Below are positions 2,009 to 15,030 of a DNA stretch of 15,030 bases, piece after piece. Position 1 is the first letter of the stretch, and every line of letters begins with the position of its first letter. The stretch is from a virus. Taxonomy: Duplodnaviria; Heunggongvirae; Uroviricota; Caudoviricetes. The notes beneath the pieces were generated by a model, which saw only the letters and a list, made by a program, of their open reading frames with translations, ran no database searches and had not been told where the DNA came from. Both the position numbers and the translations under genes were made by a program. The stretch lies in the IMG/VR virus record IMGVR_UViG_3300014749_000039, positions 1-15,030 of that record. One strand, given 5' to 3'.

Positions 2009-2971
2009 CTAAATCAGAAAGTGACTCATATTAGATCTATAAATATCAGAATTTATCTTAATTTTGCTTATTGACTCAGATATTACATTCATCAGTGAAT
2101 CATAGTCTTGACTAGTGCGCAAGGGATTAGCCAATTCATTATCAACAAGTTGTTGAGTTCCTTCGCAATTAAGTCCCAGTGGATTATCAGCCTTATGCGG
2201 TACAACAGCAAAAATAGGTCTTGCCGCTTTAATAGCAAAATCCGCCTGCGTCATTGTCCCACTATTTTTTGCTGCTTCGATTAGTATCGAAACTGCTGAT
2301 AAACCTACCTGGATTCTGTTGCGTTGCACAAATGACTGCTTGAATGCAGGCCTCCCTACAGGATACTCAGAAATCCAAGCCCCACCGTTAGATAAAATTT
2401 CATTTGCTAATCTAGCATTTTGTTTAGGCTTAGCGCTCTCTAAACCATGAGCTAATACAGCAATTGTTTTAGCACCTGCCTTAAGAGTTGCCTTGTGTGC
2501 ATTTGTATCAGTACCAATAGCTAGGCCGCTTACAATCACCACACCTCTTTCACAGATTTTCTTGGTAATTCTCTTCGTAATTTCTTCCCCTGCCATAGAA
2601 ACTTCACGAGAACCAACAATTGCAACTCCTGGCATCTCACTAAGAATATTTACGTCCCCCTTCAAATATAACATTGCTGGGGGATTTGGCGTAATTGCTA
2701 AACAAATAGGGTATTTAGCATCTCCAAAAGGAATTGGAACAATCCCCAATGATAAATGCTTGCTCAAATAGTCTTCAGCATTATGCAATGACGCTATAGA
2801 AAAGGTTGATTTTAAAATCCCGGCTGAATTAACACACTCAACCAATTCATATTCATCGGAAATAATATGGAATGGAATATCGTTAAATAATTTAAGCAAC
2901 CCTTGTTCTGATGCAAGTCTATCAACCTGTACCGATAGACCTAACAATATTTTGAATTGGGAAGGGTGCAT
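2009..2971 (-). CDS. DprA/Smf-like Rossmann-fold (SLOG-type) protein with ~100-aa N-terminal extension; second gene of the PRTase-DprA pair
   Basis: Translation contains the DprA core signature (VAIVGSREVS...VVIVSGLAIGTDTNAHKATLKAGAKTIAVLAHGLE...WISEYPVG...QRNRIQVGLS...IEAAKNSGTMTQADFAIKAARPIFAVVP). Start chosen at ATG 2969-2971, preceded by AGGAG; the listed ORF start at 2986 lacks an SD. Low GC. Confidence 0.75.
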   Translation of the reverse strand: MHPSQFKILLGLSVQVDRLASEQGLLKLFNDIPFHIISDEYELVECVNSAGILKSTFSIASLHNAEDYLSKHLSLGIVPIPFGDAKYPICLAITPNPPAMLYLKGDVNILSEMPGVAIVGSREVSMAGEEITKRITKKICERGVVIVSGLAIGTDTNAHKATLKAGAKTIAVLAHGLESAKPKQNARLANEILSNGGAWISEYPVGRPAFKQSFVQRNRIQVGLSAVSILIEAAKNSGTMTQADFAIKAARPIFAVVPHKADNPLGLNCEGTQQLVDNELANPLRTSQDYDSLMNVISESISKIKINSDIYRSNMSHFLI

Positions 2972-2975
2972 TATT

Positions 2976-3545
2976 TCACTCCTCATAATTAGCTGTTTCT
3001 AGTAACGCCAGTGGCAATATTGTCTTTGCGCCTGCATATCTTAACAGATAATAGCACGCCGTCATACTCCCCCCAGTTGTAGTAACATCATCAATAAGGA
3101 GAATAACCTTATCAGCCACATTGGATGTAACTCCGATTGTTGACATATGATGTTCGACAGAACGATCTCCGCCCCCCTTATGAGCACTCACTACTGTTGT
3201 TTTTCTCTGTAATGATTGGTTATATACAGCATTAGGAAATTTTTTCGCAATATCTTGCGCTATTTTTATTAAAGCTTGAGATACTTTTCCCTCAGCATGA
3301 GAAGGAACAATTGTTATCTCAAAGGGCACGTCGGTAAAAGCAACCCTACCAATCACATAGCTTTGGAGGCTAGAAGTTAAAAGTTGGGTAAAAATATTAA
3401 CAGCCTTTGCATACCCGGAATTTGAAGCGTCCTTCAAATCCATCATTGCCTTTGAAAGTCTATCCCCGGAACGAGGATTTCGCTCTCCTCGATATCGCCA
3501 AGGATGATATGTACCGCAAGAGTAAATTTTGATTGGCCCCATCAT
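2976..3545 (-). CDS. Phosphoribosyltransferase-domain protein (ComF/ComFC-like PRTase); first gene of the pair
   Basis: Classic PRPP-binding loop VILLIDDVTTTGGSM near the C-terminus. Stop TGA at 2976-2978 lies 4 nt upstream of the DprA-like start, so the two genes form a tight operon. Low GC. Confidence 0.75.
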   Translation of the reverse strand: MMGPIKIYSCGTYHPWRYRGERNPRSGDRLSKAMMDLKDASNSGYAKAVNIFTQLLTSSLQSYVIGRVAFTDVPFEITIVPSHAEGKVSQALIKIAQDIAKKFPNAVYNQSLQRKTTVVSAHKGGGDRSVEHHMSTIGVTSNVADKVILLIDDVTTTGGSMTACYYLLRYAGAKTILPLALLETANYEE

Positions 3546-4033: not shown

Positions 4034-4459
4034 ATGAAAAGCTTTTACGTATTAATTTTAATTCTGGTTGCAAGCTTTGTTAGCGTCCCAGTTCAGGCGG
4101 TAACAGCTAAAAACTATGAGAAAGGAACTAAAGCTCAACAGAAATCAATATCTTACCTTTCATGTGCATTCTATGGCAGTAGCACACAATTAGATCCTAG
4201 CTACACGGAGCAAGTACCTACAGCCGATATCAAGATATTACAGAAAGCAGCTTACCACGCTTACAACGATGCGCTCTCATACTTTGGTTATGAGGAACCA
4301 GATCACGAACAACGCATAATTGATTATGCTGAATTTGTGGCGTCGCAAGAAGCTGTGTTATGGGATAAACCAGGAATGAATGGAAAGCAGGTAACACTAA
4401 TTGCTCGTTCTCTCTACAATGAGAGTAACTGTAACTTGTTACTGGACTCAATTAAGTAG
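4034..4459 (+). CDS. Small secreted/periplasmic protein of unknown function (cargo gene next to cos)
   Basis: N-terminus MKSFYVLILILVASFVSVPVQA has a charged n-region, hydrophobic core and a VQA-V signal-peptidase-I-like site; no lipobox. SD GAGGT 5 nt upstream of the ATG. AT-rich relative to the phage core. Confidence 0.6.
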   Translation: MKSFYVLILILVASFVSVPVQAVTAKNYEKGTKAQQKSISYLSCAFYGSSTQLDPSYTEQVPTADIKILQKAAYHAYNDALSYFGYEEPDHEQRIIDYAEFVASQEAVLWDKPGMNGKQVTLIARSLYNESNCNLLLDSIK

Positions 4460-11368: not shown

Positions 11369-12385
11369 ATGACTGTCAGAAAACAGCCAAACGGCAAATG
11401 GTTGTGTGAGTGCTATCCCAATGGACGCAATGGCAAGCGCGTGCGTAAGCAATTTGCTACGAAAGGAGAAGCCATTGCTTTTGAAAGCTTCACAATGGAA
11501 GAAGTGAATAAAAAACCGTGGCTAGGTGAAAAGGATGATCGGCGACGCCTATCAGAATTAATTGAGCTTTGGTATTCCCTGTATGGCCAGACACTCGCAG
11601 ACCCCAAGCGCCTCATGGCGAAACTTAGAATTATCTGTAATGGTCTAGGCGACCCCATCGCCTCAGAACTGACAGCCGGTGACTTTACAAAATACCGCGA
11701 AGCACGGTTAAAAGGCGACGTTCGTAACGAAGACGGCACACTAATGTCGCCAGTAAAACCACGCACGGTGAATCTTGAGCAACGTAACCTATCATCGGTT
11801 TTCGGCACATTGAAAAAACTAGGCCACTGGTCAGCACCAAATCCTCTCGCCGGGCTGCCAACATTTAAAATCGCTGAGGGGGAACTGGCGTTCCTGACCT
11901 CGGAAGAAATTAAACGTCTGCTAGATGCCTGCGCTGATTCTCAAAACCCCAGTCTGCTTTTGATTGCAAAAATATGCCTGGCCACCGGCGCACGCTGGAG
12001 TGAAGCCGAAAACCTGCAGGGCCATCAGTTATCTAAATACCGCATCACTTATACCAAGACGAAGGGCAAGAAAAACCGCACCGTGCCGATATCTCAAGAT
12101 CTGTATGACGAACTCCCCAAGAACAGAGGGAAGCTATTCACCCCGTGCAGAAAAGCCTTTGAACGGGCAGTAAAGCGAGCTGGCATCGAGCTGCCAGAGG
12201 GCCAATGCACTCACGTGCTACGTCATACATTCGCCAGTCATTTTATGATGAATGGCGGAAACATACTGGTCCTACGCGATATTCTGGGCCATGCCGATAT
12301 AAAAATGACGATGATTTACGCCCACTTTTCGCCGGATCATCTTGAAGATGCAGTTACTAAAAACCCTTTATGCAACTTAAGATAG
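11369..12385 (+). CDS. int: Tyrosine recombinase / phage integrase (P2/186 Int family)
   Basis: 338 aa; C-terminal catalytic region HVLRHTFASHFMMNGGNILVLRDILGHADIKMTMIYAHF with the R...HxxR...Y signature; immediately follows cI. Confidence 0.85.
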   Translation: MTVRKQPNGKWLCECYPNGRNGKRVRKQFATKGEAIAFESFTMEEVNKKPWLGEKDDRRRLSELIELWYSLYGQTLADPKRLMAKLRIICNGLGDPIASELTAGDFTKYREARLKGDVRNEDGTLMSPVKPRTVNLEQRNLSSVFGTLKKLGHWSAPNPLAGLPTFKIAEGELAFLTSEEIKRLLDACADSQNPSLLLIAKICLATGARWSEAENLQGHQLSKYRITYTKTKGKKNRTVPISQDLYDELPKNRGKLFTPCRKAFERAVKRAGIELPEGQCTHVLRHTFASHFMMNGGNILVLRDILGHADIKMTMIYAHFSPDHLEDAVTKNPLCNLR

Positions 12386-12758
12386 AGTAACTTATGAAAA
12401 TAAACTCAAATTATTTACAAATATTCAGCAGGTTATCCATTCTTATTTAACTCTTCAGACTGAGATTAGATTTTATTTATAGAATAAGATAATTTAATAT
12501 CACAAAAAACCTGTAAGCCCTCATCTTTGTTGTATAAAAACATAAAAGATGCCATATTCAAAAAAGTAGAAAAGCATTGCAATGCAACATTAAAAATAAG
12601 CCAATAAAAACCAGTCATTAGAAAATGAAAAAAAACAAAAACATTTTTTATCAAAGCTTCAGTCTGACTACTAGTTTGACTCTGCAATTAACTATCAAGA
12701 TGATCAATATTTATTGATCATCTTGAAGTTGCCCTCAGGAAAGATGAGTATAATATTT

Positions 12759-14492
12759 CTACTCAAGAAGATATTCTAACTCATCTTTTATCGGGATAAC
12801 TTGCTCATAAAGTCGGTGATATGACTTCCCAATTGCGCCTCTGAATTGTATTAACTTTGGTGGCTTGTTACCTATATTAATAATATGGTCTTGAGCTATA
12901 CCTGGGTAGGGATCAATAAATACAATTTCAGATATACCTAACTGATAAGCTTTTTTCGCACACAGCTCACAGGGACTGGCAGTTGTATATAACCTCCCCC
13001 CCTGAACGCCAATGCCACCATATTTTGCAAGTTGTAAAAATGCGTTTTCCTCAGCATGTAATGCACGTGTATGAACTTGATTACCTTTTTTATCTTTATC
13101 AAGATCATTATGTATATCTTTAAAACAATAAGATAAGTTCCTGCCTCTATAAATATCACCAGTTTTATCTATCGCCCTAAAATTTAATAGTTTCTCATTA
13201 GCTTTAATTCTGAAAGAACTATTATTTCTCTCATAATGACTGTACACTTTTTCATCAAAGTCGTTCATTAGGCCATCTAGCGATCTCATAGAGCAAGGAA
13301 TCTGACCGTTGGCGACATCATTCCAACCCACTGATTTTATTGAGTTTTCACCATCAGTTACTACAGCTCCCACCTGTCTAGATATACAACCAGAGTTTAA
13401 TTTTACCGTATACGCAACTTGCATAACCCTTTCCATTGCAGTAGGTGTTATCAGACCAGGATGCTTCATCAGTGCGATGTACCACGCTAATTGTGCTTTT
13501 AAAATATTGTCATTATCAAATTCATTTTTTGGGTTAAAAATGTGTATATCTGATAGTTCAATGCATTTAGTTACATTTGGATTAGTGAGATGTTTGTAAG
13601 AGTTATCACCTTTACCTGACTCTACAGAATCTATTTCCTCTATCTGCTTTTCAGAAAACTTATGTAGTTTCCGCAAATAGTTTGTTCGATGTTCATCTGG
13701 GGCATTTATTGACATTAAATGAAATGCAGAATATCTATCCTTAAAAAATTTTGCTTCATATGGATTTCTAATAGCATCTATGACAATTAATGCGTTATCT
13801 CTTTTGCTTTTTCTTATTAATTTAATAACCCTATTAATAGTTTCCGGCAAATGAAAAACAGATTTAGGTATAAACTCTTTATCTTCAAAATCGACTTCAA
13901 TACGCCCACGGCGTCTAATTGACTTACCTGCTAACTGATAGACTGAAACATATAAATTTGAGTTTATCGCATTTAGTTCAGCTTTGAATTCCTTAGTAAA
14001 TTTTCTAACTAACCTCAAAATTGATATAAATTTATTAATCGTTTTTTCATTAAGCTTCAATTCACTATTATGATCAAGCAAATTCTCAATTACATTTTTA
14101 AATCTTGTTAAAATGAGATTATCTGAAAATACACCAAAAGTTAATACATTATCTAAATGCTCTTTACTGATAGATTTATTAGATGATAGAATAAACTCAG
14201 AAGCTTCTTCAACTGTTAACATCAAAAGATACGCTGAGATTAGGTCACTCACCTTAATTGAGTAAAAATTTTCCCAGTGATTTTCTGCGAATTTTTTAAC
14301 TATATTATAACGATGGACATCCAATCCCTTGTAAAAACCCTGTAATTTACTTACATCAGGGAAGACTGTTTTTTCGTTTTCAAGAATATTAGCTGTTGTT
14401 GTGCAACCAGAACCAGTTCGACCTGTCAAACCGACTAAAATAAACTGCCCATTTTCAAGGAAAAGCTCACTAACGAATTTTTTTTCTTTCAT
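12759..14492 (-). CDS. P-loop kinase-like + deoxycytidylate/cytidine deaminase fusion protein (AvcD / defensive dCTP-deaminase-like)
   Basis: N-terminal nucleotide-binding loop LVGLTGRTGSGCTTT and C-terminal zinc-deaminase motifs HAEENAFLQ...PCELCAKKAYQLGISEIVF (H[AC]E...PCxxC). Very AT-rich gene in an AT-rich islet between int and the ssrA fragment. First codon is GTG (14493-14495) or ATG at 14490-14492. Confidence 0.75.
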   Translation of the reverse strand: MKEKKFVSELFLENGQFILVGLTGRTGSGCTTTANILENEKTVFPDVSKLQGFYKGLDVHRYNIVKKFAENHWENFYSIKVSDLISAYLLMLTVEEASEFILSSNKSISKEHLDNVLTFGVFSDNLILTRFKNVIENLLDHNSELKLNEKTINKFISILRLVRKFTKEFKAELNAINSNLYVSVYQLAGKSIRRRGRIEVDFEDKEFIPKSVFHLPETINRVIKLIRKSKRDNALIVIDAIRNPYEAKFFKDRYSAFHLMSINAPDEHRTNYLRKLHKFSEKQIEEIDSVESGKGDNSYKHLTNPNVTKCIELSDIHIFNPKNEFDNDNILKAQLAWYIALMKHPGLITPTAMERVMQVAYTVKLNSGCISRQVGAVVTDGENSIKSVGWNDVANGQIPCSMRSLDGLMNDFDEKVYSHYERNNSSFRIKANEKLLNFRAIDKTGDIYRGRNLSYCFKDIHNDLDKDKKGNQVHTRALHAEENAFLQLAKYGGIGVQGGRLYTTASPCELCAKKAYQLGISEIVFIDPYPGIAQDHIINIGNKPPKLIQFRGAIGKSYHRLYEQVIPIKDELEYLLE

Positions 14493-14687
14493 CACGTCCC
14501 ACTTATGAATGTAAGAATATTCAACATATTAATTATAATTTATTAACTCATTTTGTTCTAGATACTTGATGTAATGGCGGCACTTTGGCGACGGAGCATT
14601 AAAAACGCGTAAGACGAGCAAATACAACAAAACACTAACACATTGTTTTTAAATATAAATAGCTGTTTTTACTATACTAAAAATGGT

Positions 14688-14732
14688 ATGTAGGAATTTC
14701 GGACGCGGGTTCAACTCCCGCCAGCTCCACCA
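14688..14732 (+). other. ssrA: Partial tmRNA (ssrA) 3' end, ~45 nt ending in CCA: probable attachment-site repeat
   Basis: ATGTAGGAATTTCGGACGCGGGTTCAACTCCCGCCAGCTCCACCA matches my recollection of the E. coli tmRNA 3' terminus (T-arm GCGGG/CCCGC, acceptor strand, CCA). Sequence immediately upstream is AT-rich and not tmRNA-like, so this is a fragment and not a gene. Confidence 0.6.
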
Positions 14733-14860
14733 ATCATGATTGGACGGTGTAAGGACAACACCAACAAAAACAGGAAGTTAGAAGTCTCAGCAAAACACCG
14801 ACCAGACGGTGAGGAGACATAAAAGGATACGCAAAGGAGCCGCGGCTCCTGGTAACATGA

Positions 14861-14884
14861 AAGCCCACAGATGTGGGCTTTTTC
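14861..14884 (+). terminator. Rho-independent terminator-like hairpin
   Basis: AGCCCAC-agat-GTGGGCT followed by TTTTT on the + strand. Confidence 0.4.
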
Positions 14885-15030
14885 GTTGATGGTCAGAACG
14901 ACCAGTTCACACCAGCTACCGCGTTCCACGGGGATTCCACACCGGCACTATGGCTATACCCCACCCCAAGATGCCCGCTTAACGTACTGCTGAATGAGGC
15001 TTTAATACCTGCCTGGTATATTCCACGTCT

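What the first reader, a model, noticed from the sequence alone, without database searches (positions are those of the whole stretch)
12386..14732. AvcD / dCTP-deaminase-like defence gene in an AT-rich islet between integrase and the att repeat
Seen: a 577-aa minus-strand gene with an N-terminal P-loop-like nucleotide-binding domain and a C-terminal zinc deaminase domain (HAEEN...PCELC), in DNA far more AT-rich than the phage core, wedged between int and the ssrA 3' fragment. Established: proteins with this architecture (defensive dCTP deaminase, AvcD) deplete dCTP/dCMP during phage infection and so starve phage replication. Unusual detail seen here: the P-loop reads GRTGSGCTT, with Cys where the canonical Walker-A lysine would be, which may mean the N-domain binds but does not hydrolyse nucleotide. 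The int-att junction as a cargo slot for a P2/186-type phage, in addition to the cos-proximal slot, is worth noting.
Basis: partly seen in the sequence, partly recalled or inferred. Interest (0 to 1): 0.7.

Follow-up and report, generated by a model that had tools for sequence, protein, structure and literature searches.

The report
Known anti-phage dCTP deaminase, prophage-borne
This is an intact copy of an already characterised bacterial anti-phage enzyme (a dCTP deaminase that starves invading phages of a DNA building block), carried as cargo by a P2-like prophage of E. coli; it is real and correctly read, but ordinary.

Summary
A 577-aa minus-strand gene (12759-14492) lies in a 31.5% GC insert (about 12381-14566) between the integrase gene and the attP arm/ssrA 3' fragment of a P2/186/Fels-2-type prophage.

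It passes the curated NCBIfam equivalog "anti-phage dCTP deaminase" (423.7 bits, cutoff 400) and PADLOC dCTPase (E 4e-145). RefSeq already gives the identical gene that name in E. coli. Tal et al. tested this same locus from E. coli U09: their construct's upstream DNA is the reverse complement of window 14496-14894.

The "unusual" Cys in the Walker A lysine position is a family signature. It is Cys in 115/115 close homologues and in 132/140 diverse representatives, and never Lys. It has been probed experimentally: G29A+C30A in the AW1.7 protein abolishes defence, and S52K inactivates V. cholerae AvcD.

The int-att cargo slot is real: empty in phage SEN8, a 401-aa gene in Cartapus/HH107, deaminase alleles here and in sister prophages. 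It was described in 2026 as a minor P2 defence hotspot.

Still open: whether an AvcI-type RNA antitoxin exists here, and what the lysine-less kinase-like domain does. Verdict: already known; low interest.

The parts
12759..14492 (-). Anti-phage dCTP deaminase gene: 577 aa, ATG at 14490-14492, stop codon at 12759-12761. An in-frame GTG lies one codon upstream at 14493-14495.
   Evidence: ORF list. NCBIfam NF041025 scores 423.7 bits against a cutoff of 400. PADLOC dCTPase E 4.2e-145. The 100% identical gene is annotated 'anti-phage dCTP deaminase' WP_000660070.1 in RefSeq. pN/pS is 0.12 against the second E. coli subgroup.
13503..14492 (-). N-terminal nucleoside-monophosphate-kinase-like domain (about residues 1-330).
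14397..14423 (-). Variant P-loop GRTGSGCTT (residues 24-32). Cys30 (14403-14405) occupies the Walker A lysine position.
   Evidence: Read from the sequence. Cys in 115/115 close homologues and in 132/140 representatives at 36-58% identity, with Lys in none. G29A+C30A abolished defence in the AW1.7 protein.
12762..13460 (-). C-terminal zinc-dependent dCMP/dCTP deaminase domain (about residues 345-577). HAE is at 13050-13058 and PCELC at 12960-12974.
14493..14566 (-). Cassette-specific leader and putative promoter. A minus-strand TATAAT lies at 14537-14532, about 40 nt upstream of the ATG, and the ribosome-site/start context AAGTGGGACGTG is invariant.
   Evidence: Conserved between the E. coli, Citrobacter and Siccibacter copies. 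Homology to cargo-free phages resumes only at 14567-14574. The consensus scan found no 9-of-12 sigma-70 match, so the promoter call is an inference.
14567..14732 (+). Phage attP arm plus the ssrA 3' fragment/att core (about 14690-14732). It contains the tandem motif TGGCGGC...TGGCGAC at about 14575-14592.
   Evidence: 83-86% identical to the sequence that directly follows int in Salmonella phage SEN8 and follows the 401-aa cargo in Escherichia phage Cartapus. Rfam tmRNA 3' end.
12386..12758 (+). Non-coding spacer. Its first 110-215 nt are a decayed remnant of the 5' end of a 208-aa gene that is intact at this position in Citrobacter and Siccibacter prophages.
   Evidence: Local alignment score 55-67 against a shuffle mean of 24.8, sd 2.8, max 36; blastn E 4e-36, including the int end. 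In-frame stops are visible. The 73-codon minus-strand ORF 12466-12687 is broken by homopolymer indels in sister strains. The spacer diverges about 8%, the same as the gene's synonymous sites.
12695..12726 (.). Perfect palindrome with 15-nt arms, 33 nt beyond the deaminase stop codon.
   Evidence: Repeat I5. Invariant in four E. coli copies. The stem is kept in Citrobacter and Siccibacter through a compensatory C:G to T:A change. No U-tract follows on either strand, so it is not a canonical intrinsic terminator.
11369..12385 (+). P2/186-type tyrosine integrase, the left border of the cargo slot.
   Evidence: ORF; RefSeq 'site-specific integrase'. 84-86% DNA identity to the int genes of SEN8, Cartapus and HH107, ending at about 12366-12380.

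Best explanation
The gene encodes a single-polypeptide anti-phage dCTP deaminase of the Tal et al./AvcD family. It is carried as lysogenic-conversion cargo in the int-attP slot of a P2/186/Fels-2-type prophage integrated at ssrA in E. coli.

Shown here: family membership, intact catalytic residues, a two-domain fold (NMP-kinase-like N-domain plus dCMP-deaminase C-domain), purifying selection, and position inside the phage, between int and a conserved attP arm.

Taken from published work on an allele of this same locus (E. coli U09) and on the about 72%-identical AW1.7 protein: the enzyme is made in uninfected cells but is inactive. When an infecting phage shuts down or tampers with host RNA polymerase, the enzyme becomes active and deaminates dCTP (also dCDP and dCMP) to deoxyuridine nucleotides. 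dCTP disappears and the invader cannot replicate its DNA. Both domains are required.

Inferred: the lysine-less P-loop (G-R/K-T-G-S/A-G-C-S/T) binds a nucleotide or another phosphate-bearing ligand as a regulatory or substrate-presenting site, and does not catalyse phosphotransfer. Release from inhibition follows the decay of a labile inhibitor, which is the AvcI RNA in Vibrio systems and is unidentified here.
For: Family: NF041025 equivalog at 423.7 bits against a cutoff of 400; PADLOC dCTPase E 4e-145; PF00383; more than 4,600 homologues, many named anti-phage dCTP deaminase.

Same locus as a tested gene: the 399 nt upstream of the U09 construct are 95.5% identical to the reverse complement of window 14496-14894 and 99.5% identical to strain FDAARGOS_1337. 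That strain's protein is 563/577 identical to the window protein. U09 and AW1.7 are both marked 'validated experimentally'.

Mechanism: dCTP depletion with a rise in dUMP; defence lost with the zinc-site mutations and with G29A+C30A; T7 escapers map to gp5.7. AvcI decays after transcription shut-off.

Fold. Selection: pN/pS 0.12.

Phage cargo: the slot is empty in SEN8, holds other cargo in Cartapus and HH107, and holds diverged deaminase alleles in strains 127 and LF4-1 and in Citrobacter and Siccibacter.
Against: No experiment was done on this exact allele. The U09 coding sequence was cut off in the held supplement, so the 97.6% identity rests on a proxy strain. No deposited phage genome carries a full-length homologue (0 of 50,697 records), so mobility as part of a viable phage is inferred from an apparently complete prophage. 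No inhibitor RNA was found. The biochemical role of the N-domain is unknown.
Confidence: 0.9

Rival explanations
1. It is a full AvcID-type type III toxin-antitoxin module. A cis-encoded small RNA immediately 5' of the gene, on the same strand, binds and inhibits the deaminase. Its decay after phage-induced transcription shut-off is the trigger.
For: [quoted passage not shown] AvcI decays on rifampicin treatment or infection. The AW1.7 protein is also linked to host RNA polymerase shut-off through the gp5.7 escapers. AvcI homologues share no sequence similarity, so failing to find one by alignment is weak evidence.
Against: Only 74 nt (14493-14566) upstream of the ATG are specific to the cassette. 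Beyond that lies the attP arm, which cargo-free phages share. V. cholerae AvcI is 152-174 nt, and an avcI transcript of about 280 nt is seen on blots. The upstream 240 nt fold no better than shuffles (z -0.65). No element is conserved across the prophage and tRNA-Phe island contexts. The AW1.7 construct carried only 83 nt upstream and was still tolerated and protective.
Confidence: 0.25
2. It is a metabolic gene that benefits the phage: a dCMP deaminase that feeds dUMP into dTMP synthesis during the phage's own replication, as T4 Cd does. On this view it is not a defence gene.
For: The C-terminal domain is structurally closest to phage and cellular dCMP deaminases. Many lytic phages encode such enzymes (established knowledge).
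Against: The ComEB/dCMP deaminase equivalog scores 37 bits against a cutoff of 219. The protein is 577 aa with an obligatory kinase-like domain, not 140-190 aa. The gene sits in a lysogenic-conversion slot, convergent with int, in AT-rich foreign DNA, and is absent from most relatives of the phage. The same-locus allele was shown to restrict other phages.
Confidence: 0.03
3. It is a decaying or silent passenger gene, H-NS-silenced AT-rich DNA with no current function in this strain.
For: The neighbouring cargo gene has decayed to a 373-nt remnant. The consensus scan found no strong sigma-70 promoter. GC content is only 31.5%.
Against: The ORF is intact in 20 of 20 E. coli copies, with all catalytic and P-loop residues present. 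pN/pS is 0.12, while the flank evolves at the synonymous rate. Tal et al. obtained defence from the native upstream region of this locus.
Confidence: 0.05

Closest known systems
E. coli U09 dCTP deaminase (Tal et al., bioRxiv 10.1101/2021.04.26.441389; IMG 2677870675)
   Same: Same chromosomal locus and same prophage slot: the construct's upstream DNA contains the ssrA fragment and the ypjA-side host DNA. Same length (577 aa). About 97.6% protein identity, judged from the proxy strain FDAARGOS_1337. Experimentally protective.
   Different: The window belongs to the other of the two E. coli subgroups: 14 amino-acid differences, none in the P-loop or the zinc site.
E. coli AW1.7 dCTP deaminase (WP_045268677.1; Tal et al.)
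   Same: Same two-domain architecture and an identical GRTGSGCTT P-loop. About 72% protein identity. This is the protein for which dCTP depletion, the G29A+C30A and zinc-site mutants, and the gp5.7 escapers were reported.
   Different: 576 aa. It sits in an integrative island at tRNA-Phe, not in a P2-like prophage, and its upstream region is unrelated.
V. cholerae AvcD/AvcI (DcdV/DifV; Hsueh et al., bioRxiv 10.1101/2021.03.31.437871; PMC10511110)
   Same: P-loop kinase-like N-domain plus a dCMP-deaminase C-domain with HAE...PCxxC. The Walker A lysine is absent (Ser52, and S52K inactivates). It deaminates dCTP and dCMP and is activated by transcription shut-off.
   Different: 532 aa, with Ser instead of Cys at the Walker A position. 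It has a defined 152-174 nt cis RNA antitoxin and is encoded on the VSP-1 island. No equivalent RNA could be shown here.
Stand-alone dCMP deaminases (T4 Cd 1vq2, S-TIM5 4p9c, S. mutans 2hvv, PBCV-1 bi-DCD 7fh4)
   Different: They have no kinase-like domain and a metabolic role. The ComEB equivalog cutoff is not met.
Defence hotspots of P2-like phages (Rousset et al. 2022, PMC9122126; NAR 2026, PMC13586616)
   Same: A small variable locus between conserved phage features, holding different defence genes in related phages. The int-att position is listed as a minor hotspot with 3% of P2 systems. The window's GpA-GpQ hotspot holds ShosTA, the DprA+PRTase system.
   Different: Nothing substantive; this is one instance of the described pattern.

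Membership tests
Anti-phage dCTP deaminase (NCBIfam NF041025; PADLOC dCTPase; Tal et al.) | The full-length profile match exceeds the curated equivalog cutoff. | tested here: met
   423.7 bits against a cutoff of 400, covering profile positions 1-437 of 437. PADLOC E 4.2e-145.
Anti-phage dCTP deaminase (NCBIfam NF041025; PADLOC dCTPase; Tal et al.) | C-terminal zinc-dependent deaminase active site H-A-E ... P-C-x-x-C. | tested here: met
Anti-phage dCTP deaminase (NCBIfam NF041025; PADLOC dCTPase; Tal et al.) | N-terminal kinase-like domain with the family's lysine-less P-loop G-[RK]-T-G-[SA]-G-C-[ST]. | tested here: met
Anti-phage dCTP deaminase (NCBIfam NF041025; PADLOC dCTPase; Tal et al.) | Depletes dCTP on infection and protects against phages. 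| not testable with these tools
   Reported for the U09 allele of this locus and for the AW1.7 protein. Not measured for this allele.
AvcID type III toxin-antitoxin system (Hsueh et al.) | Toxin with P-loop kinase-like and dCMP deaminase domains. | tested here: met
AvcID type III toxin-antitoxin system (Hsueh et al.) | A cognate small RNA antitoxin encoded immediately 5' of the toxin gene on the same strand and co-transcribed with it. | tested here: inconclusive
   Only 74 nt upstream are cassette-specific. Folding is unremarkable, z -0.65. Nothing is conserved across contexts. No Rfam hit. However, known AvcI RNAs share no sequence similarity, so absence cannot be concluded.
AvcID type III toxin-antitoxin system (Hsueh et al.) | The toxin causes filamentation or replication arrest when expressed without the RNA. 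| not testable with these tools
   Needs expression experiments. The AW1.7 construct with only 83 nt upstream was tolerated.
P2-like phage int-att defence hotspot (PMC13586616) | Lies between the integrase gene and the att site, inside the element's boundaries. | tested here: met
   int ends at 12385. The attP arm, shared with free phage genomes, starts at 14567, and the att core ends at 14732.
P2-like phage int-att defence hotspot (PMC13586616) | Variable gene content between conserved flanks in related phages. | tested here: met
   Empty in SEN8. A 401-aa gene in Cartapus and HH107. Deaminase alleles of about 73% DNA identity in strains 127 and LF4-1. Deaminase plus a 208-aa gene in Citrobacter and Siccibacter.
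Housekeeping or phage metabolic dCMP deaminase (ComEB / T4 Cd type) | Single-domain protein of about 140-190 aa that meets the ComEB/dCMP deaminase equivalog cutoff. | tested here: not met
   TIGR02571 scores 37.1 bits against a cutoff of 219.45. The protein is 577 aa with an extra N-terminal domain.

The most novel reading that the evidence does not exclude
The near-invariant Cys in place of the Walker A lysine marks the kinase-like domain as a non-catalytic sensor. On this reading it binds a nucleotide, or the phosphate backbone of an inhibitory RNA, and gates the deaminase. In this prophage the inhibitory RNA, if there is one, would have to be a short leader or be transcribed across the attP arm. 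Prophage excision or integration would then rewire the regulation of the defence gene. No structure or biochemistry for this domain was found in the PDB copy or the paper library, so this reading is not excluded.
Probability: 0.15. Interest if true: 0.5.

Novelty: already known. Interest (0 to 1): 0.12.

Why it matters
The finding itself adds little. The gene family, its mechanism, its name in RefSeq and the P2 int-att cargo slot are all published, and an allele of this very locus was one of the two genes used to discover the system.

Its value is as a clean, well-delimited example. One small slot between int and attP in a single phage lineage holds nothing, an unrelated 401-aa gene, or any of at least three diverged deaminase alleles, with a decaying second cargo gene beside one of them.

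Two open questions about the family are visible here, though not specific to this window. What does the lysine-less kinase-like domain do? Do the enterobacterial single-gene versions have an RNA inhibitor like AvcI?

Tried and rejected
1. AvcI-like RNA. I folded the 240 nt upstream (z -0.65). I aligned upstream regions across four contexts and across three genera, and ran Rfam at permissive thresholds. No candidate emerged, and only a short conserved leader with a TATAAT was seen.

2. The 73-codon minus-strand ORF in the spacer (12466-12687). Its hydrophobic look suggested a small membrane protein. I rejected it because single-base homopolymer indels break it in sister strains and it has no Pfam hit.

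3. The spacer as a second att site or a tandem island. There is no second ssrA fragment. The spacer is instead a remnant of a 208-aa gene.

4. The 17-nt repeat of the int 3' end (12335-12351 and 12716-12732) as a recombination scar. The second copy is one arm of a hairpin that Citrobacter and Siccibacter keep with a different sequence, so the match to int may be partly coincidental. It is left unexplained.

5. A solved structure for the N-domain by sequence: none.

6. The Rfam microRNA hits (E about 0.3) are noise.

7. A search for the gene in deposited phage genomes found only one weak partial hit. A search for the 208-aa gene found none.

8. The supplement of PMC13586616 is not held, so I could not check whether that survey lists dCTP deaminase in the int-att hotspot.
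Full report
OBSERVATION. The window holds a minus-strand ORF at 12759..14495. It is 577 aa counted from the ATG at 14492, which is also the start PGAP uses. Reading the sequence directly, the P-loop GRTGSGCTT is residues 24-32 (14397-14423), with Cys30 at 14403-14405. HAE is residues 479-481 (13050-13058) and PCELC is residues 507-511 (12960-12974). The surrounding DNA is AT-rich. The insert is 31.5% GC, against 48.5% for int and 53% for the phage core. The plus-strand 3' end of ssrA (...GGACGCGGGTTCAACTCCCGCCAGCTCCACCA) ends at 14732 (Rfam tmRNA, E 5e-11), and there is no complete tmRNA gene in the window.

IDENTITY. The protein passes NCBI's curated equivalog model NF041025, 'anti-phage dCTP deaminase', at 423.7 bits against a cutoff of 400 and over the full model. 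It matches PADLOC's dCTPase model at E 4e-145. Pfam sees the dCMP/cytidine deaminase zinc-binding region (E 1e-14) and only a faint AAA_18 signal in the N-terminus. A DNA search of 5,426 complete E. coli genomes found the gene in 20 of them, always on the chromosome. One copy is 100% identical and is already annotated 'anti-phage dCTP deaminase' (WP_000660070.1). A further 24 genomes have a more distant DNA match (60-80% identity); 13 of them cover at least 80% of the gene, AW1.7 among them. The wider family has more than 4,600 detectable members across Proteobacteria and beyond.

LINK TO EXPERIMENT. Tal et al. (bioRxiv 10.1101/2021.04.26.441389) discovered this defence by cloning two E. coli genes, from strains U09 (577 aa) and AW1.7 (576 aa), with their native promoters. 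Both are marked as experimentally validated. The held part of their Table S5 gives 399 nt upstream of the U09 gene. These are the reverse complement of window 14496-14894 at 95.5% identity, including the ssrA fragment and the ypjA-side host DNA. They are 99.5% identical to the same region of strain FDAARGOS_1337, whose deaminase is identical to the window protein at 563 of 577 residues. The window therefore carries an allele of the very locus that was tested. For the AW1.7 protein (about 72% identical) the paper reports four results. dCTP, dCDP and dCMP disappear within minutes of T7 infection while dUMP rises. Zinc-site mutations abolish defence. [quoted passage not shown] T7 escape mutants map to gp5.7, an inhibitor of host RNA polymerase.

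CONTEXT AND THE CARGO SLOT. The window is part of an apparently complete P2/186/Fels-2-type prophage inserted at ssrA next to ypjA. Homology to related phages ends at about 12380, in the last codons of int, and resumes at 14567-14574. The resumed stretch, 14567-14732, is 83-86% identical to the attP arm of Felsduovirus and Elveevirus phages. In Salmonella phage SEN8 that arm begins 3 nt after the int stop codon, so the slot is empty there. In Escherichia phage Cartapus and in E. coli HH107 the slot holds a 401-aa gene annotated as RES-like. I found only a sub-threshold RES hit (E 0.23) and no PADLOC hit for it. In E. coli strains 127 and LF4-1, sister prophages at the same site carry deaminase alleles only about 73% identical in DNA, in the same orientation and abutting int. 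In Citrobacter portucalensis and Siccibacter colletis, 89%-identical copies occupy the same slot, again at ssrA. The AW1.7 copy lies in a different element, at tRNA-Phe. The int-att slot is thus a genuine exchange point. [quoted passage not shown] No deposited phage genome among 50,697 carries a full-length homologue. In that collection the phage-borne copies are therefore known only as prophages.

THE FLANKS. Downstream of the gene is a 373-nt spacer (12386-12758) that other alleles lack. In Citrobacter and Siccibacter this position holds an intact 208-aa gene, co-directional with int. By eye it is rich in hydrophobic stretches, and it has no Pfam, PADLOC or phage-genome match. The first 110-215 nt of the window's spacer align with that gene's 5' end, with a local score of 55-67 against 24.8 +/- 2.8 for shuffles, and carry in-frame stops. 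A 73-codon minus-strand ORF in the spacer is broken by homopolymer indels in sister strains. The spacer diverges about 8% between the two E. coli subgroups, the same as the gene's synonymous sites, whereas the gene itself has pN/pS of 0.12. The spacer is therefore a decaying second cargo gene, and the deaminase is maintained by selection. A palindrome with 15-nt arms lies 33 nt past the deaminase stop codon (12695-12726). It is invariant in E. coli and keeps its stem in the other genera through a compensatory change. No U-tract follows it, so its role is unclear.

IS THERE AN AvcI? In Vibrio-type AvcID systems, a 152-174 nt RNA encoded just 5' of the gene on the same strand inhibits the enzyme and decays when transcription stops. 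Here only 74 nt upstream of the ATG belong to the cassette. They are conserved among the three genera and contain a TATAAT about 40 nt upstream of the start, plus an invariant ribosome-site/start context. Everything further upstream is the attP arm shared with cargo-free phages. The 240 nt upstream fold no better than shuffled sequence. Nothing is conserved between the prophage and tRNA-Phe contexts, and Rfam finds nothing. The AW1.7 construct had only 83 nt upstream and was tolerated and protective. This argues against a long AvcI here. It cannot exclude a short or overlapping one, because known AvcI RNAs share no sequence similarity.

VERDICT. The finding is real and the reading is right. 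It is an already known defence gene, already named as such in RefSeq, at a locus that was itself used in the discovery paper, and in a phage slot that has since been described. The 'unusual' P-loop is the family's hallmark and has been mutated experimentally. I rate novelty 'already known' and interest 0.12. The residual interest lies in two family-wide open questions: the function of the lysine-less kinase-like domain, and whether there is an RNA inhibitor in the enterobacterial single-gene versions.

Noticed in passing
window 2009-3545 (minus strand); also the ORF at 4034-4459 (+): The other, cos-proximal GpA-GpQ cargo slot (GC 37-44%) holds a DprA-like ShosA (325 aa, PADLOC E 9e-70) and a phosphoribosyltransferase ShosT (189 aa, E 3e-18). 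This is the DprA+PRTase system that Rousset et al. 2022 validated against T7 and lambda. A 141-aa ORF beside it has no PADLOC hit. The prophage therefore carries two known defence systems in two slots.
   Followed up: partly
window 12386-12600 (+); L011 7872-8498, L014 7874-8500: The 373-nt spacer between int and the deaminase is the decayed 5' remnant of a 208-aa gene that is intact in Citrobacter portucalensis and Siccibacter colletis prophages. By eye that gene's product is rich in hydrophobic stretches. It has no Pfam, PADLOC or deposited-phage match. I did not determine its function, or whether it ever cooperated with the deaminase.
   Followed up: partly
window 12695-12726: A perfect palindrome with 15-nt arms lies 33 nt past the deaminase stop codon. 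It is invariant in E. coli copies, and its stem is kept in Citrobacter and Siccibacter by a compensatory C:G to T:A change. It lacks a U-tract on either strand. It could be a non-canonical terminator, an mRNA stabiliser or a protein-binding site.
   Followed up: partly
window 12335-12351 and 12716-12732: A 17-nt direct repeat (16 of 17 identical). One copy is inside the int 3' coding end and the other forms the right arm of the palindrome. It may be a recombination scar or partly a coincidence; the Citrobacter arm differs.
   Followed up: partly
L002 4696-5901 (E. coli HH107); L004 2298-3503 (phage Cartapus): The alternative cargo in the same int-att slot is a 401-aa gene deposited as 'putative RES protein, NAD+ binding domain'. 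My scans gave only a sub-threshold RES hit (E 0.23, 11.9 bits against a cutoff of 23.2) and no PADLOC hit. Its function is effectively unknown.
   Followed up: partly
window 14575-14592: A tandem motif lies in the attP arm (TGGCGGC...TGGCGAC on the plus strand, spaced 11 nt). It is conserved in all related phages, including those without cargo. The two copies are candidate arm-type integrase binding sites; this was not tested.
   Followed up: no
phage genome collection (no window coordinates): No full-length homologue of the deaminase exists in 50,697 deposited phage genomes; there is only one 26.6%-identical partial hit. Yet several diverged alleles sit inside P2-like prophages. This may reflect sampling bias, or a cost to phages that carry the gene.
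   Followed up: no
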